From NCBI RefSeq assembly GCF_000722545.1, contig NZ_JNVM01000047.1, forward strand, positions 12,767 to 52,766: DNA of 40,000 bases. The letters run 5' to 3'. Shown here piece by piece: positions 5,401 through 17,045 of this stretch. Each line of letters opens with the position of its first letter. Position 1 is the stretch's first letter. Source of the DNA: Paenibacillus tyrfis. Lineage in GTDB: Bacteria; Bacillota; Bacilli; Paenibacillales; NBRC-103111. The position numbers were made by a program, and so were the translations under genes. The notes under the pieces were generated by a model, which was not told the DNA's origin, searched no databases, and saw only the letters and a program-made list of their open reading frames with translations.

Positions 5401-5761
5401 GCAGTGAGCAACGGACGAATAAATTTTCTGAGTCAATGTAATTGGAATAGGAGTCGGGAAAGTCAACCTGGTAATCTGTTGCATCGAATCCTGTAATACG
5501 GCCAATCATCCAGCGTTTCTTCTTCGAATCCCAATAATAGCATCGTGTTTGAATGTCTGGCTTAACAAATTGTATTTCGCTCAATGCGATATTAAAACGT
5601 TTTCTATTTTCTATTGAAATGAAGTACTCTACAACGACCGTTCCATTAAAGTGGTCGATTACTTTACCTATACCCAGATCGTTTCTAGTTCTAACGAACC
5701 TTCCAATTACCTTGTTTTCCATGAGAATAGACCTATCCATTTCAAATTTAGTAAATGCCAA
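2426..5761 (-). CDS. SNF2/RapA-like helicase-ATPase of 1111 aa.
   Basis: The ORF is in the track. Motifs: LLADEVGLGKTVEAG (motif I), WDLIVIDEAHII (DExH), LLLSATPV (motif III) and EQRIGRVDRLGR (motif VI). About 190 aa precede the ATPase core and about 400 aa follow it. The listed start is TTG with no convincing SD sequence, so the true start is uncertain. Confidence 0.85.
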   Translation of the reverse strand: MAFTKFEMDRSILMENKVIGRFVRTRNDLGIGKVIDHFNGTVVVEYFISIENRKRFNIALSEIQFVKPDIQTRCYYWDSKKKRWMIGRITGFDATDYQVDFPDSYSNYIDSENLFVRCSLPIEDPMEILINKGHETAFFNRKRTLFVQEMMNQRKVGRGMEGLLSSSVSLYPHQVEVIRRVSEDPVPRYLLADEVGLGKTVEAGVIIRQFLLDYPNSSVLIVVPLFLQVQWQTELHNKCNLYEFTNQLTWCATERLSFNDNLLQKNDWDLIVIDEAHIIAAKASSLIEEERKQYQLIEQLTKPARGLLLLSATPVLHHEQDFLAMLHLLDPDHYHLDEVERFQKLISIRQHIGRTLFTLRENAKPLLLRRSAEKLLELVSDDYLLSGSVERLLDALDKNDEDKRIAAVRIIRNHLTETYRLHRRMLRNRRDTVKQLFKYGRDLERGELSVAEEYDFDSRTASVQDLMDEWRETAWALEREEWQECGFSHSTGYQRLFLHLLELSNSALPVFRHVLEARLSGEISDSFTELYDTELVELLREVPLFSGERELLESLLLTVDCSVEEEDRMDHLVMVIDTVTEQARKKKKTPPKIVVFTGHYAAANFILNHLRAIYKTQVIAQYLKTLSDVQVEQEIERFRYDEQCCVLVCDPSGELGRNLQFADTIVHFDLLTQPGRMEQRIGRVDRLGRTRMFSTHVFTGPDHPSLIEAWYIFLNEGLKVFQNSISSLQFLIDRIIPEIYGRFYAEGAQSFIRYVRESFADRLEEERIQVEEQNALDEMDSSDDFVQGLVQNLVAYESDHARIQKNMEGWVHNALKFACKPSTSHTGVLTYFPTRQTLLPISTSIAMAKINSRDGSYDRMTAVSQENCRIYRIGDPFIQMLDDDIKWDDRGRTFAFWRKVKSWNPMKGFEWFGFSFNYIVEGDVSAAAAIYSSIDGKAYNRKALQRKMDRYFPPFMYTVNVTPSGSPVTDSNVIEALKAPFEKLSDFGNDTNLTKERLNVIDEFISPDQWPSLCSCARESSELFLLQDASVVTACEEALQSMQQELNRQLQQLELRAKTQQTHGQFDRIDLAFEVELHQAMQAGLKRPHVRLDSVGFIILSGSELRGDYDE

Positions 5762-5908
5762 AAGGAAAAAACCACTTCTTTAGAATCACTCAAGTGGTAA
5801 TCCTTTCTATAAATGTTACCATAAAACCCGAATGGAGTGTTACCCAAAATCAAAATTAGCACATAAATAAAAAGGGCTGTCCAAATAAGTCCCTAATCAA
5901 TTTTGAAA

Positions 5909-5954
5909 CAACAAAAACGAGCATTCCAATATAAAGGAATGCTCGTTTTTGTTG
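5909..5954. terminator. Intrinsic terminator hairpin directly downstream of queE. It separates the modification genes from the helicase genes.
   Basis: The hairpin has a perfect 19-bp stem. The arms are caacaaaaacgagcattcc (5909-5927) and ggaatgctcgtttttgttg (5936-5954), with an 8-nt loop. T-rich sequence follows on both strands. Confidence 0.8.
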
Positions 5955-5956
5955 CT

Positions 5957-6685
5957 TCAAACCCCACGCTTGTTCCCCCACAATAAAGTATGTAACTGAG
6001 GGAGAACTTTAACTTGTTTTAACTCTGAGGAATCCATTACTTGATTTATCAGCCACTCATATCTCTCTAATAACTCGAACACCAATGCTTCCTTATCTGC
6101 AGTGGTTACATCCTTATTGCCGACCTGTAAAACAAGCCTCATTTGAGGATAACGCTTATGAACCTTTACGGCATACTGAAGATCATATTCATCAAAAACG
6201 ACTACTTTGATACATACTTCATTGTTCTCACCATTCAAATTCTGAATGATTCCATCAAGCTTGTCCCAATCAGTTATCATTCCTGAACTTGGTGGTTTAG
6301 GGGAAATCGTCAAATCGTCGATATCCCTCATCCACGTTTGCCATCTGCTTCCTTGTGTTTCTAGCCCAACACGAACTCCATTATCATGAAGCAAATTAAC
6401 CAAATGACCAATATTTTTTATTAGCGCAGGATTCCCACCAGAAATTGTAACATGCTCGAACGTTATTCCACCAATAGACACTAACTCATCCCAAATCGCT
6501 TGAGCAGACAGTTGCTTGATTTCTTCCTTTGCAGAACCATCCCATGTAAAAGACGAATCGCACCATGAACAGGAGTAGTCACAGCCAGCTGTTCGAACAA
6601 ACATCGTTTTCTGACCAATAACAAGTCCTTCTCCTTGAACAGTTGGCCCAAATATTTCAAGGACGGGAATCGTATTACTACTCAT
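5957..6685 (-). CDS. queE: 7-carboxy-7-deazaguanine synthase, a radical SAM enzyme of the Bacillus type (about 240 aa).
   Basis: The radical-SAM motif CDYSCSWC sits in the context VRTAGCDYSCSWCDS. The size is 242 aa. Its ATG overlaps the queD stop as ATGA (6682-6685). Confidence 0.9.
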   Translation of the reverse strand: MSSNTIPVLEIFGPTVQGEGLVIGQKTMFVRTAGCDYSCSWCDSSFTWDGSAKEEIKQLSAQAIWDELVSIGGITFEHVTISGGNPALIKNIGHLVNLLHDNGVRVGLETQGSRWQTWMRDIDDLTISPKPPSSGMITDWDKLDGIIQNLNGENNEVCIKVVVFDEYDLQYAVKVHKRYPQMRLVLQVGNKDVTTADKEALVFELLERYEWLINQVMDSSELKQVKVLPQLHTLLWGNKRGV

Positions 6686-7119
6686 GACCTATCTCCTATC
6701 CGGGGGCGATAGATCACATAGCTAGTAGGAGTTTCTCTCAAAAAAATTTGCAGACATTTGGGTTGGTTAGGAAGCGAATCTAGATAATCTTGTATTATTG
6801 TCCAAGCAGTTCGCGCAACAACTTCAGTGCTAGGAAATATGTTTCCTTGCTCCTCATTAAATAGAGGATCTTCATTGATTAATTTATGGTCAAATCGATC
6901 ATGTATAAGTGCCTTAAGATCAGAGAAATTAACAAGAAACCCCGTATCATCTAAGACATCGCCAACGATACAAACATTCATAAAATAAGTGTGACCATGT
7001 ATTCTACTGCACTTTCCAGCGAGATCACTTGGTATGTAATGCGCGGCTGCAAATTGAAGATCTTTATTCAATTCGTAAACAAACGAATGGTTCACAGAAG
7101 GATATATTTGTTGAAGCAT
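6682..7119 (-). CDS. queD: 6-carboxy-5,6,7,8-tetrahydropterin synthase.
   Basis: The motif CSRIHGHTY (CxxxHGH) is present and the size is about 145 aa. I prefer the ATG at 7119, which is preceded by GGAGGA at a 7-nt spacing. The track ORF starts five codons earlier at a TTG (7134). Confidence 0.9.
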   Translation of the reverse strand: MLQQIYPSVNHSFVYELNKDLQFAAAHYIPSDLAGKCSRIHGHTYFMNVCIVGDVLDDTGFLVNFSDLKALIHDRFDHKLINEDPLFNEEQGNIFPSTEVVARTAWTIIQDYLDSLPNQPKCLQIFLRETPTSYVIYRPRIGDRS

Positions 7120-7149
7120 ACTATCGTCCTCCAATTGAGGTATTTCTTT

Positions 7150-7803
7150 TTACTTACTTAACAGATATTCTTCCAGTCCTCTCTTACGTAAAATGCAAGC
7201 CGGGCATTCTCCACACCCGTCCGCAAGAATACCATTGTAACAAGTCAACGTATTATTACGAATATATTCGAATGCTCCCAGTTCGTCTGCAAGTTTCCAT
7301 GCTTGTGCCTTATTTAGCCACATCAATGGCGTTTCAATTACAAATTGGTAGTCCATTGATAAATTCAAAGTTACATTCAATGACTTAATAAACACATCAC
7401 GACAATCAGGGTAACCACTAAAATCGGTTTCGCACACGCCGGTGATGATATGCTTGGCTCCAATTTGTTTCGCAAGTATTGCTGCGAAAGAGAGAAAGAG
7501 AAGGTTACGCCCGTCTACAAATGTTGTCGGCAGCTTCCCCTCTTCGCTTGCTATATCAATATCTGATCGTGTTAGCGCATTAGGGGCCAATTGGTTCAAC
7601 AAGGACATATCCTGCACATGATGTTTAATGGACAGGTCCTTTGTGATTCGCGCCGCGCACTCAAGTTCAGCAGAATGGCGCTGACCATAGTTGAAAGTCA
7701 CTGCTTCAATTTCGCTAAAATGCTGTTTTGCCCAGAACAAACATGTTGTACTATCTTGTCCGCCACTAAATACCACGACGGCTTTATTATTATTTTTAGT
7801 CAT
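7150..7803 (-). CDS. queC: 7-cyano-7-deazaguanine (preQ0) synthase.
   Basis: The PP-loop [12 protein letters not shown] is present, along with the C-terminal zinc motif CYNG...[10 protein letters not shown]. The start [11 protein letters not shown] at 7803 gives about 217 aa, typical for QueC. The track ORF extends to 7860. Confidence 0.9.
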
Positions 7804-7872
7804 TAGCTTTACCCACTTTCTTACCAGTCTCATTTCTAATGATAACAGATGCCCTATCATATCGAAAGTCGA

Positions 7873-10800
7873 CTATTTATTGTCCCCTACAACTAATCTA
7901 ATCTCTACAACATCAAATAAATTTGGGAACTTTTCTTTAATTTCATCCAGCAGACGTTTCCATTGTACTGGAGGAAGTGTGCTATAACCATTTTCAACCA
8001 GTAATCGGACATGACGTTTTATTGATGGTCTGATTTGTGGACTTTCATTTATCTTTTCTAGTAGGTGATAGATATTTCCAATGTCTTCACAATCAAGGTC
8101 ATTTCTGATTACTTGGAGAAGATGCAATTTTGTTTGCTCATGCTGAAGTTTTCTTTCGGCCCAATCTCTTAGTTGATAGAAATCTATAGATTGCCATTCA
8201 GAAATTAAGGTAACCAATTCAGAACCGATAAGTTTCTTTTTCTTTAGACGATTCGCACAATTTGCTAATCTAAATTGGAGGTTCTTAATATGATCTAAAA
8301 CTTCTAACTTAATTTGAAGGCTCAGCAGATGCTTCACTAAATTCCGCGGAGTGAGAGCAAGGCAGTTGTTTAAACTTGATAGTTCCTGCACAATAGTTGT
8401 TAAGCTTGCTTTATTCGCCTCCAATTCAGACCACACTACTTCATCTTTTTCAGTAATTTCCGCTTCATCTCGTTCATAGTTTGTTTGCATGTTACACTCA
8501 GTAAGAAAGTCTGCAACTTCAAGTGCCATCTCGTCGAATTGTTTGGTTAACTGTTTTATCTCATCGTTTAAAGTAGTAGCCCTCTTATATTGAGCGGCAA
8601 GTTCTTGATTTTCTAATTCTTGTTCCAGCAAAGTGTAAGTAACAAAGTCTTGTTGTGTAACAATCTTCTTCTCGCTAAAAGCTTTAATCCGTCCAGCAAG
8701 TTCTATCAATTTCAAATTGCCCGAACCAATTAAAAATGGAATCATAGATGTTCTTTTCTGAAATGACTGCTTAAAGCTTTCGTGAAGTAGATCAGAGTAT
8801 CTGTGGTAACTTTCTTTCAATTGTGATAGAAATACCCTTAGAGTAGTGTTTCCAATTTGATAGTTTTCTAGGGTGTTCGATGGCGTGAGATTTCTAAACC
8901 AACGATCAAATTCTTCATTCGTCAACATGGCATTGCTTGGCGGCTGAAAAAAATTATCACGTAACAAGTACCAATCTGAATAACAATCCTCAAGCAGGGC
9001 TGTTAATTCTGTTCGGAAGGGAGAATATTGAATTACATTTGAGGCCCATAATGATTCACTGTATACTCGGGCATTTTGAACCCAATTTTTCATCCCGTAC
9101 ACAAAAACAGGAAGTTTCAACCCAAGAGCCTGCTCAAGAGAATTAAGCCATTCCTCATGGATTGACTCTGCTTGGTGTATCCATTTAGCAATTTCATACT
9201 CATTAGAAATTTTTTGAAATGTCTTGACCTTTTCTGAATATTTCATTGTTTGAAAGTTGGCAATTTGAATAGCAATATAACCCCTACTAACGCTTATTGT
9301 AGACTCATCATTGTTATCCTGGAGTGTAATTGGATACCGTGTTCGATTCACAACTTCATTTCGCTGAATGGTTGAGGAGGTTCTCGATGTGAATGAGCGA
9401 GACATATGAACCCCCTTTATAGCATCATGCACCAATGCCGCCACCCCAGATCTAACCGGTAATAATAATTCTTCATTTACTTCTCTTCCTTCCACCCAAT
9501 CTCTAACTACTTCTTTTTCATTGAAACCAGTATTACTATCTCTTGTCGGCTCTTCGAGAAATTGCTGCTCCTCTCTTAAGCTATTTTCAATACTATTTAG
9601 TTTAACAACGATTTGGCTGTCCTTATATCCAAAGTGCTTTAATATAGGTTCAGAAATTGTAATCTTCCCCGCTTCTTCAGATGCATACCATTCTGCGAGA
9701 GTTTTGATTAAAACATCAGTATGCTCGGCGAACATTTCCCTTCTAATAAGAGGAAGAATTCTACTAATATCTTTCTTGCCTCTTAGAAAAAAGCGAATAA
9801 CTTCTTTACTATTCAAAATCATGTAACGTAATTTCCCTTTTCCCATTGGAATTGCATCATACGTTCGCCTTAACATATGACTATTAAATGGAAGCAACTG
9901 CACTTCAATATCGCTCAATTTAGAATCATTATTGCTTGATTCTAGGGTATTACTTGAACATTGGTTGTAGTAAGGACATTCAGGAGAGCATTTAAAGCCT
10001 TGTGTTGCTTTCAACTGTGTAAGGTAATTAGCCATATATGGAATTACTTGTTTACGATCTAGGTTGAAAAAGTCTTTTCCTGACTCGTCAGATAGCCATA
10101 ACTTTTTCACACGGTCATTGATAGTATCAAGATTCTTGATTCTTTGAGTAAGACTAAATCCTTTTTCTGTGTCCTGAACCGCGCCAGGAGTTAGACCAAT
10201 TACTACATCCCAATTACCCTCTTCTAACGTAATAAGTTGATCCAATATATTTGTTGCATAAATGTTAACCGATTGAACAAGATCGTCAATTAGTAGCAAT
10301 GGACGGATACCCTTGCTTTTTATCTGCTGCGACAATTGTTTAAACAGGGTTCCAATGTCCCGTCCCTCAAAAAGAAAATGGTCTAGTTTCCGAGAAAGAG
10401 TTTGTCGAAATGGTGCATACTCCAGGGAGATATTAAGAGTCGTATTAGCAAGTAAAGATTCGAACTGCTCACGATGCAGGACTTCTAGTGGTTTTTTGAT
10501 TTTTCCTCGTTTAATTTGAGAAGTAAATTCAACAATGTTATTCTCAATTATAGGTCTCAACAATAGTGCTGCTGGAACAATTTCCTCATCGGATTCCAGC
10601 GATTCGGCAAGTGCTGTCCAAACCATTTGATTAATAAGCGTAATAGGCTTTTTGAGTAATAGCCCCCACTTATCTTCATCAATGCAAACATCTAAAGACA
10701 AATCTAATGCATCTAAACATTTTTTGATCAGTGTCTGAGGGTTTAACTCCGTTCGTGAAATTCGTATCACCGGTCGTTCAGATACTTCCACTAACCATTT

Positions 10801-11064
10801 ATCTTTTAGCCAACGAAGCAGTTCAGATTTCCCTGATCCCGTTGAACCAAATACTAAATAAACCCTGTTGCCATCAGAATCAACTTCTTTGAGTTCTTCC
10901 AGTAATTCGCCTTCCGTAACCTCGGCGATCAGTTGACTATCATTAAATCTATGCATTACTTGAGGGAAATGGGTTTTCCTAAAATACTCAGGCGATTGGT
11001 CGTAACGCTCGTCTGCAGTCCCTACTAAAAGTTTAAGCGAATTTTTGTTGAGACAAGGCATCAT
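7873..11064 (-). CDS. Large P-loop NTPase of 1063 aa. The family is not recognised.
   Basis: Walker A is VFGSTGSGKSELLRWL and Walker B-like is RPLLLIDDLVQS. A long, probably helical C-terminal region follows. The gene overlaps the upstream 258-aa ORF by 32 nt, which suggests coupling. Confidence 0.7.
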   Translation of the reverse strand: MMPCLNKNSLKLLVGTADERYDQSPEYFRKTHFPQVMHRFNDSQLIAEVTEGELLEELKEVDSDGNRVYLVFGSTGSGKSELLRWLKDKWLVEVSERPVIRISRTELNPQTLIKKCLDALDLSLDVCIDEDKWGLLLKKPITLINQMVWTALAESLESDEEIVPAALLLRPIIENNIVEFTSQIKRGKIKKPLEVLHREQFESLLANTTLNISLEYAPFRQTLSRKLDHFLFEGRDIGTLFKQLSQQIKSKGIRPLLLIDDLVQSVNIYATNILDQLITLEEGNWDVVIGLTPGAVQDTEKGFSLTQRIKNLDTINDRVKKLWLSDESGKDFFNLDRKQVIPYMANYLTQLKATQGFKCSPECPYYNQCSSNTLESSNNDSKLSDIEVQLLPFNSHMLRRTYDAIPMGKGKLRYMILNSKEVIRFFLRGKKDISRILPLIRREMFAEHTDVLIKTLAEWYASEEAGKITISEPILKHFGYKDSQIVVKLNSIENSLREEQQFLEEPTRDSNTGFNEKEVVRDWVEGREVNEELLLPVRSGVAALVHDAIKGVHMSRSFTSRTSSTIQRNEVVNRTRYPITLQDNNDESTISVSRGYIAIQIANFQTMKYSEKVKTFQKISNEYEIAKWIHQAESIHEEWLNSLEQALGLKLPVFVYGMKNWVQNARVYSESLWASNVIQYSPFRTELTALLEDCYSDWYLLRDNFFQPPSNAMLTNEEFDRWFRNLTPSNTLENYQIGNTTLRVFLSQLKESYHRYSDLLHESFKQSFQKRTSMIPFLIGSGNLKLIELAGRIKAFSEKKIVTQQDFVTYTLLEQELENQELAAQYKRATTLNDEIKQLTKQFDEMALEVADFLTECNMQTNYERDEAEITEKDEVVWSELEANKASLTTIVQELSSLNNCLALTPRNLVKHLLSLQIKLEVLDHIKNLQFRLANCANRLKKKKLIGSELVTLISEWQSIDFYQLRDWAERKLQHEQTKLHLLQVIRNDLDCEDIGNIYHLLEKINESPQIRPSIKRHVRLLVENGYSTLPPVQWKRLLDEIKEKFPNLFDVVEIRLVVGDNK

Positions 11065-11809
11065 TTAAATCACATCTCCTCTCCACCTTTATCCAATTGA
11101 AGTCATTTTTAGGTCCATATGATTTATAGGGTAAATCTTGCACGTAACTCAACTCCAACGCCCCTTCTTGATGTAACGCCATTAAAGAAAAGATAACCCC
11201 TCTGTATATATTTCCTTCAGATGTTAAGCACGGTATGACCGGATGAATAATATTTTCACAAAATGGATGCAATCCACCCTCCCATGCCTCATTCCCCTTA
11301 ATGATACTTTTCATTAACGAAAGCTGTGGAAGTGCATAGAAACCTGAGTATATACGTCTACCCAATCCCCAGCACTCCATCATTCGCTTCCAGGCATTAA
11401 CTTTCTCGTGCCCGACTAATGTTTTCATTAATTGGCTATTGATTTGATAGTGAATATTACTCACAAACAATCGATCCGGCTTTACAAATAACTGTTCAAA
11501 CAGGGAAGCAAATATTTTATCAAGCGAATCGCTAGGTAGATCTTCAGACATTGAAAGTTCCCTTAACTTAAAAAAAACCTCTTTGTTGCACCATGGCTTG
11601 TCTTGTAGTACAAAAAATTGAGATTTGTCTTTATATACAAACTGTAGATCCTCTAATACGGTCAAGCCGCATTCAATTAAAGATGTAATGTCCCCGTTAT
11701 CACCATACTGAAATCTTGTTTTTAACATCTTTACATCCAGTCCTGGATTAGTTCTTAAATTTTCATAAATCACTTCAATTTCCGGTCCGTAGCACATTTG
11801 AAACAACAT
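11033..11809 (-). CDS. Hypothetical protein of 258 aa with no recognisable motif.
   Basis: This is a long ORF packed into the operon. It overlaps both neighbouring genes, by 35 nt upstream and 32 nt downstream. An alternative start exists at M5 (11797). Confidence 0.55.
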   Translation of the reverse strand: MLFQMCYGPEIEVIYENLRTNPGLDVKMLKTRFQYGDNGDITSLIECGLTVLEDLQFVYKDKSQFFVLQDKPWCNKEVFFKLRELSMSEDLPSDSLDKIFASLFEQLFVKPDRLFVSNIHYQINSQLMKTLVGHEKVNAWKRMMECWGLGRRIYSGFYALPQLSLMKSIIKGNEAWEGGLHPFCENIIHPVIPCLTSEGNIYRGVIFSLMALHQEGALELSYVQDLPYKSYGPKNDFNWIKVERRCDLNDALSQQKFA

Positions 11810-12707
11810 GCTCGCTCCTCCTCTTCTTATTTTCTAAAATATCGTTAAATGTTCTAAGTAAGTGGTAATAGTTATGGATTGATCTTAACTTCATATATTC
11901 TCTTGGGGATGGGACTAATATTTGTCTTGCATCGTTTTCACATACAGGGCATTCACAATGAAGCGGATTTTCCAATCGCGGACTTGTGGGTTTAGCTCGA
12001 GATTCTGAGAGGAAAAAGGTTCTAAATGGCCTGCTGTAGAACACTTGAAAGAACGCAGCTGCCATCGTTGGTCGTGTTGAATCAAATGAGCTTACACCAA
12101 TATCAACCATTGCACTGAGTTGGGGAATTCCTGTTACTCCAAATACATGCAGGTTTGAAGGCCCTACAACATCTGCTGCCCTTCTGATCATTTCAATTTG
12201 CTGGGTCTGATGTTTAAAAAGTAACGATCCAATTCCAAACTTCGTATACCCCATTTTGATCAGTTCATAAGCTGAAAACTCAATACTAGCTTGGTCATAA
12301 CCTTGAATGACTCCCATTGGTTGAACAGATTTCGGAAGATTACATTTATGAAAAATATTGAAATACTCATACGCATTAAATAGCGTTCTTTCTATCGCCA
12401 TGTAACGTTCAGATAAAGAGAACTTATTTAACAATGGTTCGTCAAAATGAACCATTCGAACAATTGCTTCTTTTTCGCAATCTTCTAAGAGCGAGAGTTG
12501 AATATCAAAAACATCTTTTAGCGGAGGCCTAACTTTTTGTTTAACATAAAACACTGACCCACAGTCTAGTATTAGCTTGCTAGGTTTATTTTTATACCTT
12601 TTTACTCCTCCTCTATTGTCTGGTATTGCACTAATTAAAACTGGACATTGAGGAAAGTAATCACAAAATATTGCATCACTATGTGACCAACCAATATAAA
12701 ATTCCAT
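11775..12707 (-). CDS. TGT-fold transglycosylase, DpdA-like, 310 aa.
   Basis: TGT-type motifs are present in the canonical order: ILDCGSVFY (compare DSGGFQ), MGVIQG, GYTKFGIGSL, HVFGVTG and GVSSFDSTRP (the catalytic Asp region). The zinc motif CECPVC is followed by His in IHNYYH. An AGGAG SD sequence lies 8 nt upstream of the ATG. Confidence 0.8.
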   Translation of the reverse strand: MEFYIGWSHSDAIFCDYFPQCPVLISAIPDNRGGVKRYKNKPSKLILDCGSVFYVKQKVRPPLKDVFDIQLSLLEDCEKEAIVRMVHFDEPLLNKFSLSERYMAIERTLFNAYEYFNIFHKCNLPKSVQPMGVIQGYDQASIEFSAYELIKMGYTKFGIGSLLFKHQTQQIEMIRRAADVVGPSNLHVFGVTGIPQLSAMVDIGVSSFDSTRPTMAAAFFQVFYSRPFRTFFLSESRAKPTSPRLENPLHCECPVCENDARQILVPSPREYMKLRSIHNYYHLLRTFNDILENKKRRSEHVVSNVLRTGN

Positions 12708-12731
12708 ATCCTCATCTCCTAGCTCAAATAA

Positions 12732-12768
12732 TATACGTGATTATACGTGATAATTTGATTGTATCACA
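12732..12768 (-). promoter_or_regulatory. Candidate promoter/operator for the DpdA-like operon segment.
   Basis: A perfect tandem 10-mer, tatacgtgat x2, occupies 12732-12751. On the minus strand its junction forms TATAAT (12740-12745), about 33 nt upstream of the ATG. The -35 candidate TGTGAT (12763-12768) is weak. An imperfect palindrome, GTGATA-N9-TATCAC, overlaps the region. Confidence 0.4.
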
Positions 12769-12796
12769 GTTCACCATCACTCATCTACTCTTTGAA

Positions 12797-12825
12797 TATA
12801 AAAAAAAGAAGCCATCAGGCTTCTT
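12797..12825 (-). terminator. Intrinsic terminator immediately after the 264-aa ORF, inside the gene cluster.
   Basis: The stem pairs aagaagcc (12806-12813) with ggcttctt (12818-12825). The 4-nt loop contains the stop codon. On the minus strand the hairpin is followed by a T-run of 8 or more. Confidence 0.7.
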
Positions 12826-13609
12826 TTATCCATTGTCTCCATATTTCATATATTAAATCGCGTTGTGCATCATTAAATTTAAAACTTCCTTTATTAACAA
12901 GTAGCACTGGGTTGTCTCGGTCAAAAAACTGACCATTCCAATTCTCATAATGAAATTCTTCTGTGAGTAGCGGCCGCGGCTGATTGGTTAGATGAGAATC
13001 CTCAGTCCACTGCTCCATGAAATATCTAATATAGCAATACCAGGCAATGGCTGAGTCAGCAATGGATTTTTTTCGAAATTGTTTCCTCTGTGCTACAGGA
13101 AGATATCCTAGTTCAGGATAATGATTCATTATAGATTCAACATATTTAATTAAATCTTTAGCTAATTGAGGACATAGGCTATGTTCAACTCGATACCTTT
13201 GAAAGTCCTTGAAAATATCATGCAGCGATCTAATGGTCATTAATTTTGTGGAGTTGCTGCTTATTTTCTCCCCCTTCTCAATCAACCGCTCAAAACGCTC
13301 ATATGACATTAATTGATGCATACAGTAGCTAGGAAAGTACTGGGTTTCAGATACAATTAGAACGACGTATTCATCACTGATACTGCCGTTGGGCAATTTA
13401 TAAGTAAACCGGGGGTTCGTCACTTGTAACTTATCGTTTAAAAAACTTACCACAGTATCATAATTTACTAAAATGACGTCTTCGCCAACTACATCAGACT
13501 GAATTATAGAAAAACCCCAGTCTTTAATCACACCTAATGGCAGTACAGCAAGATACACGTCACTATTCTTTCTGGTTAAATTTCTTACGTTTTCAAAAGT
13601 AAAAACCAT
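12815..13609 (-). CDS. Hypothetical protein of 264 aa with no recognisable motif.
   Basis: This is a long ORF in operon context. The SD-like sequence GGGGGA lies upstream of the ATG. I saw no ParB/DGQHR, nuclease or methyltransferase motif. Confidence 0.55.
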   Translation of the reverse strand: MVFTFENVRNLTRKNSDVYLAVLPLGVIKDWGFSIIQSDVVGEDVILVNYDTVVSFLNDKLQVTNPRFTYKLPNGSISDEYVVLIVSETQYFPSYCMHQLMSYERFERLIEKGEKISSNSTKLMTIRSLHDIFKDFQRYRVEHSLCPQLAKDLIKYVESIMNHYPELGYLPVAQRKQFRKKSIADSAIAWYCYIRYFMEQWTEDSHLTNQPRPLLTEEFHYENWNGQFFDRDNPVLLVNKGSFKFNDAQRDLIYEIWRQWIKEA

Positions 13610-13623
13610 GGAATTTCCCCCAA

Positions 13624-13664
13624 CGCAAATATGCCTTAGTGTATCACACTAAGGCATATTTGCG
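13624..13664. repeat. Perfect 19-bp inverted repeat with a 3-nt loop, filling most of the 57-bp intergenic gap.
   Basis: The arms are cgcaaatatgccttagtgt and acactaaggcatatttgcg, checked base by base. No U-tract follows on the coding (minus) strand. The hairpin abuts the RBS of the 264-aa ORF. Confidence 0.9.
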
Positions 13665-13666
13665 CA

Positions 13667-15697
13667 CTAATTATTCCACTGTTTTTTTAATTCTTGAATT
13701 TGACTGTAGTAGACATGAGTATTATGAAACCCTCTTCGTCTGTTTCTATTATTACCTCTAAATACAATCACATCGATTCCAATTTCCTTACATATATTAC
13801 AGCCACATTGTTCCCATGGACGTTCAGACAAAACCTCTCTATAGAGATCCTCATGCACTTCGCGCTTCTCCCCTAGAATTTTATCATATTCCAGTATAGC
13901 TTCAAGTGTGGATGATAATTCCCTTTTCCCAGCACTGAATTCCCTTAAAGCGATTAATGCCTCCTGTTCGAGCCTCTTATATTGATCAAACTCAATCTCA
14001 TCATTATTTTGCATCATTTTTTTTACTCTTCCGGACGTTTCTTTTGCTTCAGGTATTCTAATCGCTGTGTAATGTTTACCACTTAAGGTATGATAGTTAT
14101 GTCCAGTTCCTAACCACGCTCTTCTTAAGGGAGAAGATGAGTCAAACGAAGTCACGCCTAGTTTATGGAAGGATTCCATTGTTTTCATATCTCGTGCAAC
14201 TCCAAACAAGTGCATACGAAACGTAGGACTCGGAATAACAGGTGCTATTTCTTTAAGAATTTCATATATTTTTTCAGATTGTTCTCTGGCTAAACCACCC
14301 AAGGCAATATAGTCATAACCTAGTCCAATAAGATGCTCTACTGCTCTACGGAAAGAAGGTGGGTCCCATCCTTGAACTATACCTATCGGATGAAACTGAT
14401 AATTCCTTGTCTCCTTATTCTCCCTATACATCCGTATAAACTCTTCCGCCATAGTAAGGGTTAGTTCATAACGCTGATTTCTTATATTTTCATCTCTTTG
14501 AAAAGGGCCTACTATTAGATGGTCAATTGACACTCCATAATCAAACCCCAGTTTGTGGTAGTAGTCAATGATCTCTTGAGTAGTATAAGGCGGGACTTCT
14601 TTATCAATATAACTAAAGGCACCGCAATCACCCATAATCGGATATTCTCTAGGAAGTCGATAAAATTCGTGCAATCCCATATCTTGAATCATCTGATTTT
14701 TCAACTTTGTAGCATTATCGATGTTCACTTTAGAAACAAGGAGTCCATCAAATTGAGGTCTTTCAAAAATCTGATGAGCGTACACATCGTTTTCTAATGG
14801 ATTTCTATTCTTCTCAGAGAAATCACTCATAAAATCATAATTTGGATCGACCCTATCATCATTCTCTGGAAGATAAAATTTTGGTTCTTCAATGCAATTT
14901 ATAGCAACTAACTCATCTGGCACAGGAAACATTTCATTATAAAACAGTAATAAGTCTTCATTTCCTGATATGTCACTAAAAAGTTCAAGTTGTTTTTTAG
15001 AGGAAATTGAATTGAAAATATACTCTCTAATTTGATTAGGACTATACATAATTGCGTCCCACTTTAGATCAATGTTATCCGAAATGATGCTCTTTAATAA
15101 ATGTGAAAAAAGATAACCCTTGATTCCTATCAAACCATATTTAAATGTCTTAGCTTCTTTTTCCCCAATAGTTAATACATGATAATCGTCCCAATTTAGA
15201 ATCCTAGAACGACTGGATGCTCCAGCAAAAAAGATCGCTTTTTGATTACTTTGTAGCTTTAATGGCCACTCCACTGCTTGCAAATATTTATCTCCAAGTA
15301 AGAAAAAAATAAGATCATAGTCCGCAACTTTTGTTTGCAAAGCTTGTGTAATTTCAAGTTCGCGCGCCCATTTTTTTATAGTCTGCGAGTCCATTGTATT
15401 GAAAGTCACTTCATAGGGAACAATCTGAGAGTTTTCATTCAAAAGACCATAACCCGCTGAAATAATGCATAGGTCAATTTTTCCACCTTGTTGCCGATAT
15501 TCTTTAATACCACTCATTAGAGCAAGGTGCTGACTCCCTGTGTACATTTCATCAGCACGTTCTTTGAATTCCAACAATTCTGCTTCTCTTTGTTTTAATA
15601 CATCTTTATTCTTGAAATCATCGAATACAAGTTGATTTATCGGTTTATGTAACTTCTCTCCAGTACAAGAAGTGACAACAAGAATACGTTTTGACAA
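13667..15697 (-). CDS. Fusion protein of 676 aa. An N-terminal DUF6884/YaaA-like domain is joined to a C-terminal TGT-fold (DpdA-like) transglycosylase.
   Basis: The C-terminal half carries MGDCGAFSY, IGIVQG, GYDYIALGGL, HLFGVA, GVTSFDSSSP and the zinc motif CGCNIC followed by His (FHNTH). The N-terminal ~200 aa carry ILVVTSCTGEK, then MYTG, then CIISAGYGLL...IVPYEVTF...KKWA. From memory, this pattern matches DUF6884 and resembles the YaaA/DUF328 core. The start is TTG, with AAAGGATGGG upstream. Confidence 0.75.
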   Translation of the reverse strand: MSKRILVVTSCTGEKLHKPINQLVFDDFKNKDVLKQREAELLEFKERADEMYTGSQHLALMSGIKEYRQQGGKIDLCIISAGYGLLNENSQIVPYEVTFNTMDSQTIKKWARELEITQALQTKVADYDLIFFLLGDKYLQAVEWPLKLQSNQKAIFFAGASSRSRILNWDDYHVLTIGEKEAKTFKYGLIGIKGYLFSHLLKSIISDNIDLKWDAIMYSPNQIREYIFNSISSKKQLELFSDISGNEDLLLFYNEMFPVPDELVAINCIEEPKFYLPENDDRVDPNYDFMSDFSEKNRNPLENDVYAHQIFERPQFDGLLVSKVNIDNATKLKNQMIQDMGLHEFYRLPREYPIMGDCGAFSYIDKEVPPYTTQEIIDYYHKLGFDYGVSIDHLIVGPFQRDENIRNQRYELTLTMAEEFIRMYRENKETRNYQFHPIGIVQGWDPPSFRRAVEHLIGLGYDYIALGGLAREQSEKIYEILKEIAPVIPSPTFRMHLFGVARDMKTMESFHKLGVTSFDSSSPLRRAWLGTGHNYHTLSGKHYTAIRIPEAKETSGRVKKMMQNNDEIEFDQYKRLEQEALIALREFSAGKRELSSTLEAILEYDKILGEKREVHEDLYREVLSERPWEQCGCNICKEIGIDVIVFRGNNRNRRRGFHNTHVYYSQIQELKKQWNN

Positions 15698-15728
15698 AAA
15701 AATCCCATCCTTTACTCACACCAATATA

Positions 15729-15752
15729 AAATAGGGCGAGAACGCCCTATTT
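15729..15752 (-). terminator. Terminator-like hairpin overlapping the stop codon of the transporter gene.
   Basis: The stem pairs aaatagggcg with cgccctattt (10 bp) around a 4-nt loop. It is followed by tatatt on the minus strand. The U-tract is weak, so termination may be only partial. Confidence 0.5.
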
Positions 15753-16265
15753 CCAAACAACTTTTGCATGCTTTAAAAAAATTTTTTTCACAATAATTGC
15801 AGCAAATAATTGAACCAATGTCTTAACAATGATTTGACCAACAATCGCCAGAAATACAGCATTCCAGGGAAGAATATTGGCCCCCAATGGTGATAGTCCC
15901 ACAACAACAAAAATAATACTATCTAGTATTCCTCCAACAATACCACTGTATGCTACCCTCATATGAAAAGGTAGTTTAAGGCGTGAATAAATTTCTGTAT
16001 CTGTAGTCTCGGATACCGCAAATGTAATGATTGAAGCAAATACAATCCAAAGTGTATCCCCAAGTAAATATGATGTTAATGCCGATAAAACCATTGCTAT
16101 TAAAATGAGTAAATAGGTCTTCCGCCTACCAACAAAATTTTGCACAAAATCGCGGAATATAAATGTTGCCCCTATTATAAATGTCCCTGCCGGAATAATA
16201 AAGGGTCCAATAAAAAATGGGGGTATTCCTGCTGTTACGACATTTGAAGAAATAATAGCCAGCAA
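15747..16265 (-). CDS. Queuosine-precursor (preQ0/preQ1) transporter of the YhhQ/VUT family. This is a short form.
   Basis: The protein is polytopic and hydrophobic. GATFIFRDFVQNFVGRR resembles the YhhQ core (compare FLxTDxxxExYG), and GGILDSIIFVVVG resembles the C-terminal family motif. The listed start is TTG. An in-frame ATT at 16292 has a better-placed SD sequence (AAGAGG, 16302-16307). An in-frame stop at 16299-16301 caps the N-terminus. Confidence 0.65.
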   Translation of the reverse strand: MLAIISSNVVTAGIPPFFIGPFIIPAGTFIIGATFIFRDFVQNFVGRRKTYLLILIAMVLSALTSYLLGDTLWIVFASIITFAVSETTDTEIYSRLKLPFHMRVAYSGIVGGILDSIIFVVVGLSPLGANILPWNAVFLAIVGQIIVKTLVQLFAAIIVKKIFLKHAKVVWK

Positions 16266-16474
16266 ATAAGCTACAATTGTTAAATATTTAATTTTACATC
16301 ACCTCTTCAATTCAATCCATCATTAATTATAACACCACTTTTTGTTCCGAGCTACCCTTGCCAAGCTAATTAATTTATCCAATCATTGGCTAGCTTGAAG
16401 GTACAGGGCAACATCTTGTTCTACTTGATAATCTATCAAATCGAGTTATTTTAGGAAGGGTATAAATACAATAG

Positions 16475-17045
16475 TTATCTTACTCTCCCATACATCACCC
16501 GCTTATCCCCATCAAACAAATTCCGACAAACCACCTGCCCACGCCTGGAGGATGCATCGACCGCCTAGCCATTCCCTGCATAAATACCTACATGCGTAAT
16601 ATCCATAAAACGACCATTCTGTTCATAACTCCAGAAGACCAAATCACCTGTTGCTAAATCTTCATATTGTATTGCCATCTCATTTTCTAAATATAACGTG
16701 CCTGCTCCGCTGCAGTGCGCGGCAACTGAATATTTAGCTGCTTATAAACCCATTGCACAAGGTAACTACAATCTGTGTAGCGATCCTGCCCCGCCTTCGG
16801 CTGGCTATACGGATCACCCAAGCGAGATCAATGCCAGCTTAACAGCCTCAACGCCTCGCTCCTCCTCTGACAAATCACGATAAACAAGTTCAAGCTGTTC
16901 CTGAGATAATCCTGTGTCGCTGTCCTTGCCCAAAAGTGCAAACATAAGTGGTCTGAACTCCTCTGACAACAGCTCCTCCATAAGTGAATCCTGAAGCTGT
17001 AGGCTGCTGATTGCTCATCTGCTGTTCGGCTGGTAATGGTTTTAT
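16475..17045 (-). pseudogene. Decayed NlpC/P60 cell-wall hydrolase gene of the type found on conjugative elements.
   Basis: The minus-strand translation gives LGDPYSQPKAGQDRYTDCSYLVQWVYKQLNIQLPRTAAEQARY in one frame. It gives ENEMAIQYEDLATGDLVFWSYEQNGRFMDITHVGIYAGNG-stop-AVDAS in another. That is at least two frameshifts plus a premature stop. The 5' limit is approximate. Confidence 0.65.

What the first reader, a model, noticed from the sequence alone, without database searches (positions are those of the whole stretch)
7873..13609. An orphan trio (orf264, orf258 and a 1063-aa P-loop NTPase) occupies the place of DpdB and DpdC
Seen in sequence: I found no ParB/sulfiredoxin-type or DGQHR-type motif in any ORF of the locus. 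Instead, orf258 overlaps both the DpdA-like gene and a large NTPase (Walker A GSTGSGKS, Walker B LLLIDD). orf264 sits between the two TGT genes.

Established knowledge: preQ0 insertion by DpdA in the Salmonella system requires the ATPase activity of the ParB-like DpdB.

Inference: the 1063-aa NTPase, possibly together with orf258, may be a non-homologous replacement that supplies the ATP-dependent step. Alternatively it may belong to the restriction arm, like the large ATPases of BREX or Dnd-type systems. Either way, three proteins have no function assignable by eye.
Basis: partly seen in the sequence, partly recalled or inferred. Interest (0 to 1): 0.7.

Follow-up and report, generated by a model that had tools for sequence, protein, structure and literature searches.

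The report
DpdB-less Dpd island with second transglycosylase module
The three "orphan" genes are diverged relatives of known Dpd proteins. The unit conserved across genomes is a second small DNA-base-swapping enzyme, a DNA-binding partner and a large ATPase, and it appears where the usual helper ATPase DpdB is missing.

Summary
The "orphan" label and the claim that DpdB and DpdC are absent do not hold.

- **DpdC is present.** It is fused to the N-terminus of the 676-aa DpdA.
- **orf264 is a narrow-range DndB/DpdB-like remnant.** Its relatives match only the C-terminal half of Pfam DndB, and it lacks the DGQHR NTPase motif.
- **orf258 is a remote paralogue of DpdG.** hhalign gives 98% probability. 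Its model shows three tandem winged helices.
- **The 1063-aa NTPase is a remote paralogue of DpdH,** the BrxC-like ATPase. hhalign gives 99.5% probability over about 500 columns.
- **Neither is the island's own DpdG or DpdH.** Close relatives carry true DpdG and DpdH downstream of DpdE-DpdF.

The conserved trio is the short 310-aa TGT + orf258 + NTPase. It is present at every one of about 30 related loci where the flanks allow a check. These span Bacillota, Chloroflexota and a Deinococcus plasmid. No full DpdB occurs at any of them, and the trio persists where DpdE-K are absent.

The short TGT keeps all catalytic and zinc residues but lacks DpdA's DNA-binding insertions.

My best reading (confidence about 0.45) is an ATP-driven, BREX-style transglycosylase complex that has displaced DpdB's ATPase. 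The main rival (0.3) is a sensing or effector branch of the restriction arm. This is a new variant of a known system.

The parts
15747..16265 (-). YhhQ/VUT-family queuosine-precursor (preQ0) transporter
   Evidence: Pfam Vut_1 E 1.2e-15; NCBIfam TIGR00697 E 6e-11, 42.4 bits, below its 50.95-bit cut-off
13667..15697 (-). DpdC-DpdA fusion (676 aa). The N-terminal DUF6884/DpdC-like domain covers about aa 1-160. The DpdA transglycosylase domain covers aa 273-669 and has intact D357, D392, Q442, G467-G468, D519 and Zn site C631/C633/C636.
   Evidence: NCBIfam DpdA 455 bits (cut-off 200); Pfam DUF6884 49.3 bits; PADLOC DpdC E 1.5e-11; hhalign against Enterobacter DpdC 95.4%; catalytic columns conserved in 21 fusions
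12815..13609 (-). orf264: DndB/DpdB-related protein without the DGQHR NTPase motif. Lineage-restricted accessory gene or remnant at the dpdB position.
   Evidence: BLASTP E 2.8e-23 to the Bacillus sp. X1 protein. That protein hits Pfam DndB positions 173-317 of 338 at 32.7 bits, above the 29.1 cut-off. Alignment A4 shows a shared NSTK(L)MT motif and no DGQHR. Only 7 clusters exist.
12804..12827 (-). Terminator-like hairpin (10-bp stem plus T-run) at the end of orf264
   Evidence: consensus scan only
12740..12767 (-). Promoter-like site (GTGATA-16-TATAAT) upstream of the short TGT
   Evidence: consensus scan only; the number of sites is not above shuffles
11775..12707 (-). sTGT: 310-aa minimal TGT-fold enzyme. 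Catalytic D48, D89, Q135, G160-S161 and D209 and Zn site C251/C253/C256/H278 are intact. It lacks DpdA's Ins1/Ins2 region and the roughly 70-aa four-helix bundle of Ins8.
   Evidence: Pfam TGT E 7e-15; NCBIfam DpdA only 75 bits against a cut-off of 200; alignment to PDB 7UI4; residues invariant in 22 members; Asp-to-CxCxxC spacing 41-51 aa against 112-124 aa
11033..11809 (-). orf258: remote paralogue of DpdG with three tandem winged-helix domains
   Evidence: hhalign against DpdG 95.4%, rising to 98.0% (E 1.7e-13, 243 columns) with the extended family; controls below 3%; AF2 pLDDT 90.2; weak tandem-WH fold hits
7873..11064 (-). 1063-aa P-loop NTPase: remote paralogue of DpdH (BrxC-like). ORC/Cdc6/STAND-type ATPase in the N-terminal half, helical or coiled-coil C-terminal half.
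   Evidence: NCBIfam DpdH E 1.9e-7, N-terminal part only; 28 of 35 homologues hit DpdH; hhalign 99.5%, E 5.5e-23, 499 columns; AF2 pLDDT 82.8; Foldseek hits to RdrA, TrwB, Cdc6/ORC
7150..7860 (-). QueC (preQ0 synthase)
   Evidence: By eye: N-terminal [13 protein letters not shown]-pyrophosphatase motif. Position-equivalent genes in L007-L009 carry Pfam QueC. This ORF was not itself scanned against a family library.
6682..7134 (-). QueD (6-carboxytetrahydropterin synthase)
   Evidence: position-equivalent genes in L007-L009 carry Pfam PTPS
5957..6685 (-). QueE (7-carboxy-7-deazaguanine synthase, radical SAM)
   Evidence: position-equivalent genes in L007-L009 carry Pfam Radical_SAM
2426..5761 (-). 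DpdE (SNF2/BrxHII-like helicase), first gene of the restriction arm
   Evidence: NCBIfam DpdE 941 bits (cut-off 500); PADLOC DpdE E 3e-221
1..2440 (-). DpdF, truncated by the window's left edge
   Evidence: blastx 45% identity over 762 aa to Nostoc DpdF; phmmer E 5e-196

Best explanation
The window holds the modification half and the start of the restriction half of a DpdB-less variant of the Dpd 7-deazaguanine restriction-modification island. It sits on a low-GC mobile element in Paenibacillus tyrfis.

Part assignments:
- DpdC is fused to DpdA.
- orf264 is a DndB/DpdB-like remnant that has lost the ParB-type DGQHR NTPase motif.
- The conserved functional unit is sTGT + orf258 + the 1063-aa NTPase.

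Proposed mechanism (inferred): the three form one translationally coupled complex. The DpdH/BrxC-type ATPase uses ATP to load onto or move along DNA and open target sites. The three-winged-helix DpdG paralogue binds DNA or bridges the partners. The minimal TGT lacks DpdA's own DNA-gripping insertions. It performs guanine-for-preQ0 base exchange on DNA presented by its partners. The complex would thus supply the ATP-dependent insertion step that DpdB supplies to DpdA in Salmonella. The DpdC-DpdA fusion would add or convert the mark to dADG. The logic resembles BREX, where the modification enzyme works only within a BrxC-centred ATPase complex.

Shown here: the homologies, intact catalytic and Walker residues, gene coupling, conservation of the trio, absence of full DpdB, and persistence without DpdE-K.

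Inferred: complex formation, the DNA substrate, ATP dependence, and which 7-deazaguanine base is inserted.
For: 1. The trio is present and adjacent at every related locus with enough flank. It is also on a Deinococcus plasmid.
2. The genes overlap by 35 and 32 nt and have good ribosome-binding sites.
3. sTGT keeps the residues shown to be essential in Salmonella DpdA (Asp95, Asp256) plus Asp130, the Gly loop and the Zn site. All are invariant in 22 members.
4. sTGT lacks the DNA-contacting Ins8 helical bundle and the Ins1/Ins2 region, so it needs DNA-binding partners.
5. orf258 is a confident three-winged-helix model.
6. The NTPase has invariant Walker A and B residues and an ORC/Cdc6/STAND-like fold.
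7. No trio locus contains a full DGQHR/DpdB.
8. orf264 occupies the dpdB slot but matches only the C-terminal half of DndB. It is absent altogether in Tumebacillus, Laceyella, Chloroflexota and Deinococcus.
9. Of four cyanobacterial DpdC-DpdA fusions, two have a full DGQHR and no second TGT. The other two have a short TGT flanked by helicases and no DGQHR.
10. The trio persists with the fusion where no DpdE-K lies within 10 kb: L012, L016, L023, L027.
11. In the window the trio shares 36-37% GC with the fusion and YhhQ, against 43-49% for DpdE and DpdF. A promoter-like site precedes sTGT. The trio is followed closely by queC-queD-queE, while a gap of about 195 nt precedes dpdE.
12. Literature: DpdA needs DpdB's ATPase in vitro (PMC10164549). 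DpdB is absent from about 8% of dpdA genomes (PMC5699537). A P-loop NTPase substituting for DpdB was proposed for an unrelated TGT-containing BREX-related system (PMC12839542).
Against: - orf258 and the NTPase descend from DpdG and DpdH, which belong to the restriction operon in Salmonella.
- Members of the same G'/H' lineage sit in restriction-type operons with a DpdI-sized protein, YprA-type helicases and PLD nuclease, not next to a TGT. Examples are haloarchaeal locus L039 and metagenome locus L038.
- In several bacterial loci the trio abuts DpdJ-K-D: L017, L019, L022, L033, L042, L048.
- If only an ATPase had to be replaced, it is unclear why a second catalytically intact TGT is needed, or what the DpdA domain of the fusion then does.
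- Phage DpdA enzymes work without DpdB, so the fusion may simply be DpdB-independent.
- No relatives of the trio were found in phages. Phages are where pure modification modules are common.
- The exclusivity sample outside the trio loci is only four plasmids.
- No experimental data exist for any member.
Confidence: 0.45

Rival explanations
1. The trio is a sensing or effector branch of the restriction arm. The TGT-fold protein probes target guanines by flipping them into its pocket. On unmodified foreign DNA it either signals through the DpdG'/DpdH' ATPase scaffold to DpdJ/K/D-type helicase-nucleases, or it damages the DNA by base excision or covalent trapping. 7-Deazaguanine at host sites is not a leaving group and therefore protects self DNA.
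For: - orf258 and the NTPase are paralogues of the restriction-operon proteins DpdG and DpdH.
- Relatives of this lineage sit in G'-H'-I-like-helicase-PLD operons.
- The trio is adjacent to DpdJ-K-D in L017, L019, L022, L033, L042 and L048.
- Cyanobacterial plasmids with fusion + helicase-short TGT-helicase have no other obvious restriction component.
- A TGT pocket is well suited to telling G from 7-deazaguanine.
- The trio is absent from phages.
Against: - TGT enzymes exchange bases. With cellular guanine or preQ0 available, the covalent intermediate would resolve without damage, or would modify the invader.
- Stand-alone trios in Anaerolineae (L024, L025) have no DpdA fusion within 5-10 kb. 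They would attack self DNA unless a modifier is encoded elsewhere.
- This reading does not explain the systematic absence of DpdB or the DGQHR-less remnant at the dpdB position.
- The trio persists with the fusion where DpdE-K are absent.
Confidence: 0.3
2. sTGT with its two partners is an independent second writer. It installs a different 7-deazaguanine derivative or marks a different sequence motif. It works in parallel with a DpdB-independent DpdC-DpdA fusion and does not replace DpdB for that fusion.
For: - Both TGT paralogues keep catalytic residues.
- The substituent-binding loop differs: G-S in sTGT against G-G in DpdA.
- sTGT forms its own clade, separate from DpdA and the fusions.
- Stand-alone trios exist.
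- Phage DpdA enzymes show that DpdB is not universally needed (PMC6884629 as cited in the field; own knowledge).
Against: - This reading does not by itself explain the mutual exclusivity with a full DGQHR protein.
- No extra base-tailoring enzyme that would make a second derivative is encoded next to the trio.
Confidence: 0.15
3. The NTPase and orf258 are simply this island's diverged DpdH and DpdG. The island would then be an ordinary Dpd system with shuffled gene order.
For: - Weak NCBIfam and PADLOC DpdH hits.
- Similar length: 1063 aa against a model of 1014.
- The G-H style adjacency with overlapping genes.
Against: - Close relatives with 71-86% identical NTPase proteins (L011, L013, L014), and more distant ones (L018, L020, L021, L033/L035, Deinococcus L006), carry bona fide DpdG and DpdH after DpdE-DpdF. 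DpdH E-values run from 1e-30 to 1e-184. These are present in addition to the trio.
- The NTPase scores 29.9 bits against a DpdH cut-off of 450.
Confidence: 0.03
4. The trio is an unrelated neighbouring defence system that merely co-localises with Dpd genes in defence islands.
For: - Stand-alone trios sit in Anaerolineae defence islands beside SIR2-STAND, Dnd genes and an integrase.
- Defence systems cluster in general.
Against: - All three components are homologues of Dpd proteins (TGT, DpdG, DpdH).
- The DpdC-DpdA fusion lies within 10 kb at most loci with adequate flank, across three phyla.
- The trio is interleaved between dpdA and queCDE in the window.
Confidence: 0.07

Closest known systems
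Canonical Dpd system (Salmonella Montevideo dpdA-K; here compared with Enterobacter cloacae pPOL9A, L034)
   Same: DpdA-type transglycosylase, DpdC domain, preQ0 genes (QueC/D/E, YhhQ), DpdE and DpdF. In close relatives, DpdG and DpdH too. The overall logic is 7-deazaguanine restriction-modification.
   Different: No DGQHR/ParB-like DpdB. DpdC is fused to DpdA. There is an extra minimal TGT and an extra, very divergent DpdG/DpdH pair. orf264 is a DGQHR-less DndB-like protein.
DpdG-DpdH(-DpdI) of Dpd, equated with BrxC of BREX (10.1101/2025.09.15.676423)
   Same: orf258 and the NTPase are homologous to DpdG and DpdH by profile-profile comparison. They share the same adjacent, overlapping gene order. 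The ATPase has an ORC/Cdc6/STAND-type fold.
   Different: They fail the NCBIfam equivalog cut-offs by a wide margin (29.9 against 450 bits; no DpdG hit). They are coupled to a TGT rather than to DpdF/DpdI. They coexist with true DpdG and DpdH. No DpdI-like partner was detected.
BRIGADE systems of haloarchaea (10.1101/2025.09.15.676423); example Natronorubrum aibiense plasmid, L039
   Same: Two TGT paralogues (long DpdA plus short TGT), a DpdC-like protein, a P-loop ATPase downstream of the short TGT, and a G'/H' pair of the same lineage as orf258 and the NTPase.
   Different: There the short TGT is followed by an unrelated 299-aa protein and a BrxD-like 383-aa ATPase. The G'/H' pair sits in the divergent helicase-PLD operon. 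DpdC is a separate gene. The hosts are archaea.
BREX-Related Capture (BRC) systems with TGT (PMC12839542)
   Same: A TGT homologue combined with BrxC-like and STAND ATPases, without DpdB or DpdC. The authors likewise propose that a P-loop NTPase substitutes for DpdB.
   Different: BRC is built around HerA/FtsK, PglZ, DUF4007 and GNAT. None of these is present here. Here DpdC, DpdA and the DpdE-H arm are present.
DpdB / DndB (ParB-like DGQHR proteins)
   Same: Relatives of orf264 match the C-terminal half of Pfam DndB. orf264 shares the NSTK(L)MT motif and lies next to dpdA.
   Different: orf264 lacks the N-terminal ParB-like domain with DGQHR/DGQQR that carries DpdB's ATPase. It gives no Pfam, NCBIfam or PADLOC hit itself.

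Membership tests
DpdB (DGQHR domain-containing protein, ParB-like ATPase) | N-terminal ParB-like NTPase domain with DGQHR/DGQQR motif | tested here: not met
   No DGQ[HQ]R motif in any frame of the island. The orf264 family lacks the motif region in alignment A4. Its relatives match only DndB profile positions of about 160-317.
DpdB (DGQHR domain-containing protein, ParB-like ATPase) | Match to Pfam DndB (PF14072) or NCBIfam DpdB above the cut-off | tested here: not met
   orf264 itself has no hit. Its homologue in Bacillus sp. X1 scores 32.7 bits against a cut-off of 29.1, on the C-terminal half only. orf264 matches that protein by BLASTP at E 2.8e-23.
DpdB (DGQHR domain-containing protein, ParB-like ATPase) | ATPase activity required for DpdA-dependent preQ0 insertion | not testable with these tools
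   Biochemical property (PMC10164549).
DpdC (DUF6884) | DUF6884 / DpdC profile match | tested here: met
   aa 44-159 of the 676-aa protein: Pfam DUF6884 49.3 bits (cut-off 30). PADLOC DpdC E 1.5e-11. hhalign against Enterobacter DpdC 95.4%. The match covers only about the first half of DpdC profiles.
DpdC (DUF6884) | Converts dPreQ0 in DNA to dADG | not testable with these tools
   Needs LC-MS of DNA.
DpdA (NCBIfam NF041059) | Equivalog score of at least 200 bits | tested here: met
   676-aa protein: 455 bits over aa 273-669. The 310-aa sTGT scores only 75.4 bits, which does not meet the cut-off.
DpdA (NCBIfam NF041059) | Catalytic Asp95/Asp130/Asp256 equivalents and CxCx2Cx22H Zn site | tested here: met
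   Fusion: D357, D392, D519, C631/C633/C636. sTGT: D48, D89, D209, C251/C253/C256/H278, invariant in 22 members.
DpdA (NCBIfam NF041059) | DpdA-specific insertions Ins1, Ins2 and the 70-residue four-helix bundle in Ins8 that contact DNA | tested here: not met
   For sTGT, 42 residues separate the nucleophile Asp from the first Zn Cys, against 112 in DpdA. There are also 47 fewer residues before the first catalytic Asp. The fusion's DpdA domain has DpdA-like spacing.
DpdH (NCBIfam NF041065) | Equivalog score of at least 450 bits over the full length | tested here: not met
   29.9 bits, aa 24-118 only. The best family member scores 54 bits.
DpdH (NCBIfam NF041065) | Homology beyond the P-loop | tested here: met
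   hhalign 99.5%, E 5.5e-23, NTPase columns 60-587 against DpdH 22-653. The Deinococcus member hits the DpdH HMM in three collinear segments.
DpdH (NCBIfam NF041065) | Being the island's single DpdH within an E-F-G-H-I operon | tested here: not met
   True DpdG and DpdH follow DpdE-DpdF in L011, L013, L014, L018, L020, L021, L035 and L006. This cannot be seen for P. tyrfis itself because the window ends inside DpdF.
DpdG (NCBIfam NF041064) | Equivalog score of at least 80 bits | tested here: not met
   No hit for orf258. Distant family members reach 11.6 and 14.1 bits.
DpdG (NCBIfam NF041064) | Full-length profile-profile homology | tested here: met
   hhalign 98.0%, E 1.7e-13, 243 columns. 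Controls against DpdI, DpdK and orf264 are below 3%.
BrxC/BrxD BREX ATPase (PF10923) | Pfam match above the gathering score | tested here: not met
   E 0.0063, 15.9 bits against a cut-off of 22.2. The link to BrxC rests on the literature equating DpdHI with BrxC and on an ORC/Cdc6/STAND-like fold.

The most novel reading that the evidence does not exclude
A minimal TGT-fold enzyme, a three-winged-helix DpdG paralogue and a DpdH/BrxC-type ATPase form a self-contained, ATP-driven DNA transglycosylase machine. This would be a BREX-style scaffolded writer for 7-deazaguanine. It has displaced the ParB-like DpdB in a whole branch of Dpd systems. In Chloroflexota it can exist as a stand-alone three-gene module. 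More generally, stripped-down TGT cores are recurrently paired with defence-type motors: H'/BrxC-like, BrxD-like or DpdF/HamB-like helicases.
Probability: 0.35. Interest if true: 0.75.

Novelty: new variant of a known kind. Interest (0 to 1): 0.6.

Why it matters
How DpdA reaches and opens its target sites, and why it needs an ATPase, is still unresolved for Dpd systems. The roles of DpdG and DpdH are unknown.

This variant offers a natural experiment. The ParB-type ATPase is gone or reduced to a DGQHR-less remnant. A DpdG/DpdH-type pair is instead hard-wired to a second, stripped-down transglycosylase. Testing it would address three questions:
- Can BrxC-like ATPases drive DNA base exchange?
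- What do DpdG and DpdH do?
- Are two TGT paralogues needed to write or to read the mark?

It also matters for annotation. Current models (NCBIfam, PADLOC, Pfam) leave all three proteins unnamed. Surveys that require dpdA+dpdB, such as GATOR-GC (PMC12235509), would not retrieve this branch, because its loci lack a full DpdB.

Tried and rejected
- **rRNA in window 1-2400.** I suspected rRNA there because no ORFs were listed and GC is 47-52%. Rfam and ARAGORN found nothing. blastx showed it is DpdF running off the window.
- **Contig beyond the window.** I could not fetch the P. tyrfis contig. Exact look-ups of DpdE and of P0001 were not on record. I used close relatives instead.
- **NTPase as the island's DpdH.** Rejected, because relatives carry true DpdH as well.
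- **orf258 against other families.** hhalign against DpdI, DpdK and orf264, and NTPase against DpdG and DpdI, gave probabilities below 3%. These served as controls.
- **NCBIfam DpdG on distant orf258-family members.** Only marginal: E 0.023 and 0.13.
- **PDB sequence search with the NTPase profile.** Only coiled-coil noise.
- **Phage relatives.** None found by pattern scan or tblastn.
- **Haloarchaeal proteins.** The 299-aa protein and the BrxD-like ATPase next to the short TGT could not be linked to orf258 or the NTPase. hhalign gave 19% for the 299-aa protein against DpdG (0.2% against the orf258 family) and 13.5% for the ATPase against the NTPase family.

Full report
**Setting**

The window matches Paenibacillus tyrfis: the 1063-aa protein is 100% identical to an NCBI entry from that species. 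A low-GC block runs from about 1 to 24.8 kb. Most genes in it are 35-43% GC, against about 60% in the flanks.

The block carries one long minus-strand gene array. On its right side are three tandem tyrosine-recombinase genes and a fourth integrase. It therefore looks like a mobile island.

Reading along the minus strand, the genes are:

| Coordinates | Product |
|---|---|
| 16265-15747 | YhhQ/VUT transporter |
| 15697-13667 | 676-aa TGT-family protein |
| 13609-12815 | orf264 |
| 12707-11775 | 310-aa TGT-family protein (sTGT) |
| 11809-11033 | orf258 |
| 11064-7873 | 1063-aa NTPase |
| 7860-5957 | QueC, QueD, QueE |
| 5761-2426 | DpdE (NCBIfam 941 bits) |
| about 2440 to beyond position 1 | DpdF, cut by the window edge |

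**Checking the observation**

The coordinates, the 35-nt and 32-nt overlaps, and the Walker A (aa 73-80) and Walker B (aa 256-261) motifs are all correct. So is the absence of any DGQHR/DGQQR motif. The starts have good ribosome-binding sites.

All three ORFs have conserved homologues. The NTPase has at least 209, orf258 has 80 clusters, and orf264 has 7 clusters.

The statement that DpdC is missing is wrong. The first 160 residues or so of the 676-aa protein match three DpdC-type profiles:
- Pfam DUF6884, above its cut-off. This is the domain of DpdC (PMC12235509).
- PADLOC DpdC models.
- An Enterobacter DpdC, by hhalign at 95% probability.

Residues 273-669 are a full DpdA (455 bits). This protein is therefore a DpdC-DpdA fusion.

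**What the three "orphans" are**

*orf264.* It has no direct family hit. It does match the position-equivalent 266-aa protein of Bacillus sp. X1 (26% identity, E 2.8e-23). That protein scores above the gathering cut-off on Pfam DndB, the family of DpdB. The match covers only profile positions 173-317 of 338. Canonical DpdB matches positions 2-159, which carry DGQHR. Alignment A4 shows that the orf264 family shares the NSTK(L)MT motif with DpdB/DndB but has nothing at the DGQHR site. orf264 is therefore a DndB-like protein without the ParB-type NTPase motif. It occurs only in Paenibacillus, Brevibacillus and Bacillus loci.

*The NTPase.* It weakly hits NCBIfam and PADLOC DpdH at its N-terminus (E about 2e-7). 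So do 28 of 35 family members. I built family alignments from annotated plasmid dpd clusters (Enterobacter, Nostoc, Agrobacterium, Deinococcus) and from the fetched loci. With these, hhalign gives 99.5% probability, E 5.5e-23, over 499 columns: NTPase 60-587 against DpdH 22-653. The AF2 model (pLDDT 82.8) has an N-terminal ATPase resembling RdrA, TrwB, Cdc6/ORC and NLR STAND modules. Its C-terminal half is helical. This fits the published view that DpdH and DpdI together correspond to BrxC (10.1101/2025.09.15.676423).

*orf258.* It aligns to DpdG over nearly its full length at 95.4% probability. After adding distant members found in a 1.84-billion-protein search, the figure rises to 98.0% (E 1.7e-13). 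Controls against DpdI, DpdK and orf264 stay below 3%. The Deinococcus homologue hits both the orf258 and DpdG HMMs. The AF2 model (pLDDT 90.2) shows three tandem winged-helix domains. Only weak PDB matches exist, to other tandem-WH proteins.

**They are paralogues, not the island's own DpdG and DpdH**

In several relatives, DpdE-DpdF is followed by bona fide DpdG and DpdH, with DpdH E-values down to 1e-184. These are P. glucanolyticus, P. amylolyticus, Paenibacillus sp. 1P03SA and LS1, and two Bacillus strains. On plasmid pART37 the same position holds DpdG- and DpdH-sized genes annotated as hypothetical, and the DpdH-sized one matches DpdH at E 7e-35. The Deinococcus taeanensis plasmid likewise carries an annotated DpdH alongside an NTPase homologue. 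I call the extra pair DpdG' and DpdH'.

**The conserved unit**

I examined these related loci:
- 22 genome loci.
- 7 metagenome loci.
- Look-ups of individual homologues.
- Two plasmids.

sTGT, orf258 and the NTPase are adjacent at every locus with enough flank. The loci span Bacillota, Chloroflexota and Deinococcus.

Further patterns:
- A DpdC-DpdA fusion lies within 10 kb at most loci. The exceptions are Desulfocucumis L004 and two Anaerolineae loci, L024 and L025. In the Anaerolineae the trio stands alone among other defence genes.
- No trio locus contains a full DGQHR protein.
- At four loci (L012, L016, L023, L027) the fusion and trio occur with no DpdE-K within 10 kb. In L012 and L016 the downstream genes are an unknown 965-aa protein and a UvrD/GajB-like helicase. 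L016 also has an MBL-fold protein.

**The second TGT**

sTGT aligns to the Salmonella DpdA crystal sequence, PDB 7UI4. It keeps these equivalents:

| Salmonella DpdA | sTGT |
|---|---|
| Asp95 | D48 |
| Asp130 | D89 |
| His181 | Q135 (Gln, as in the fusion's DpdA domain) |
| Gly206-Gly207 | G160-S161 |
| Asp256 (nucleophile) | D209 |
| Zn site | C251, C253, C256, H278 |

All are invariant in 22 family members. Asp95 and Asp256 are experimentally essential in DpdA (PMC10164549).

sTGT is about 100 residues shorter than DpdA. Only 42 residues separate the nucleophile from the zinc cysteines, against 112 in DpdA. It therefore lacks the 70-residue four-helix bundle of Ins8 that contacts DNA. It also lacks about 47 N-terminal residues that include the DpdA-specific Ins1 and Ins2.

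The fusion's DpdA domain keeps all catalytic residues and DpdA-like spacing. A rough neighbour-joining tree places the trio-associated sTGTs in their own clade.

**Comparison with other fusion-bearing loci**

Four cyanobacterial plasmids carry DpdC-DpdA fusions:
- Allocoleopsis and Scytonema pair the fusion with a full DndB/DGQHR protein and have no second TGT.
- Nostoc NIES-3756 and Picosynechococcus have no DGQHR protein. They carry a different short TGT flanked by two DpdF/HamB-like helicases.

A haloarchaeal plasmid, of the kind described as BRIGADE, encodes on one strand DpdA, DpdC, a short TGT, a 299-aa protein and a BrxD-like ATPase. On the other strand it encodes a G'/H' pair of the orf258/NTPase lineage, followed by a 247-aa protein, two helicases and a PLD nuclease. 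A metagenomic member of the lineage (L038) also sits in a G'-H'-270 aa-helicase-PLD operon with no TGT nearby.

**Interpretation**

Shown:
- The island is a Dpd variant with a DpdC-DpdA fusion and no functional-looking DpdB.
- It carries a DGQHR-less DndB-like remnant.
- It carries an additional module made of a catalytically intact minimal TGT, a DpdG paralogue and a DpdH/BrxC-type ATPase.

Inferred:
- The three proteins act as one ATP-dependent complex that presents DNA to sTGT for base exchange.
- This takes over the ATP-dependent step that DpdB provides in Salmonella (PMC10164549).

Support for this reading:
- The absence or decay of DpdB.
- The exclusivity pattern in the cyanobacterial plasmids.
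- The missing DNA-binding insertions of sTGT.
- Translational coupling of the three genes.
- Persistence of the trio without DpdE-K.
- In this window, shared base composition with the fusion and YhhQ, a promoter-like site before sTGT, a terminator-like hairpin after orf264, and tight linkage to queCDE.

Against this reading:
- DpdG and DpdH belong to the restriction operon in Salmonella.
- Lineage members occur in helicase-PLD operons.
- The trio abuts DpdJ-K-D in several loci.
- The need for a second active TGT is unexplained.

The chief rival is that sTGT-G'-H' is a modification-sensing or effector branch of restriction. I give it 0.3 and the modification-complex reading 0.45. An independent second writer, an unrelated neighbouring system and a plain DpdH orthologue take the rest.

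**Novelty**

The papers I could search describe:
- DpdA, DpdB and DpdC biochemistry (PMC10164549).
- dpd island diversity surveyed by requiring dpdAB (PMC12235509).
- DpdHI equated with BrxC, and the BRIGADE systems (10.1101/2025.09.15.676423).
- TGT-containing BREX-related capture systems in which a STAND NTPase is proposed to replace DpdB (PMC12839542).

None describes this bacterial sTGT-DpdG'-DpdH' module or the DGQHR-less DndB remnant. NCBI annotation of these loci calls orf258 and orf264 hypothetical proteins and the NTPase either hypothetical or "P-loop NTPase fold protein". I rate it a new variant of a known kind, of moderate-to-good interest.

Noticed in passing
window 1-2440 (minus strand): DpdF runs off the left edge of the window and was invisible to the ORF lister. 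The restriction arm therefore continues outside the window. In close relatives DpdG and DpdH follow.
   Followed up: yes
window 19186-22785 and 23487-24677: Three consecutive tyrosine-recombinase genes (513, 369 and 312 aa) plus a fourth integrase (396 aa) sit at the right end of the low-GC block. This looks like a recombinase-trio type mobile element carrying the whole Dpd island. In P. vortex and P. glucanolyticus the same island sits beside trpR/cbiX/yegS/rlmD-like genes instead.
   Followed up: partly
window 16266-18216: About 1.95 kb upstream of yhhQ has no convincing ORF, no Rfam or tRNA hit, and no blastx match to related loci. GC is 39%. Its nature is unknown: it could be a regulatory region or a decayed gene.
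   Followed up: partly
window 18217-19071: orf284 (284 aa, plus strand), between the island and the recombinases, has no Pfam, NCBIfam or PADLOC hit.
   Followed up: no
window 1-16265: There is a GC gradient within the island. YhhQ through the NTPase are 35-37% GC, QueCDE 38-42%, DpdE 43% and DpdF 49%, against 60% in the host flanks. This suggests the modification half, including the trio, and the restriction half have different histories.
   Followed up: partly
L037 12789-18450 (Nostoc sp. NIES-3756 plasmid); L040 3832-9403 (Picosynechococcus plasmid): A different short TGT of about 310 aa, without the CxCxxC zinc motif, is sandwiched between two DpdF/HamB/BrxHI-like DEAD helicases. It lies next to a DpdC-DpdA fusion, with no DGQHR protein and no obvious nuclease. 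This may be another undescribed compact Dpd-like module.
   Followed up: partly
L039 5392-11459 (Natronorubrum aibiense plasmid): The haloarchaeal locus encodes DpdA, a separate DpdC-like protein, a short TGT, an unknown 299-aa protein and a BrxD-like ATPase. A divergent G'-H'-helicase-PLD operon sits opposite. The architecture parallels the bacterial one.
   Followed up: partly
L012 15284-20471; L016 13337-19649: Directly after the fusion + trio (+QueCDE in L012) come a conserved 965-aa protein with no family hit and a UvrD/GajB-like helicase. L016 also has an MBL-fold (LmuA/RTasMBL-like) protein. This may be an alternative effector module replacing DpdE-K, or a separate defence system.
   Followed up: partly
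window 7873-11064, aa 359-369 and 697-702: In the NTPase family C359, C363 and C369 are invariant, suggesting a small metal-binding knuckle. D697 and R702 are also invariant, with W698 and L701 nearly so, within a DWYLLR segment of the helical C-terminal half. No function is assigned.
   Followed up: no
L024 12502-15714; L025 11571-16615: Stand-alone trios in Anaerolineae lie in defence islands. One is next to a SIR2-STAND-FGE-sulfatase fusion protein. The other is next to Dnd-like genes: PAPS reductase, an SMC-like ATPase and a cysteine desulfurase.
   Followed up: partly
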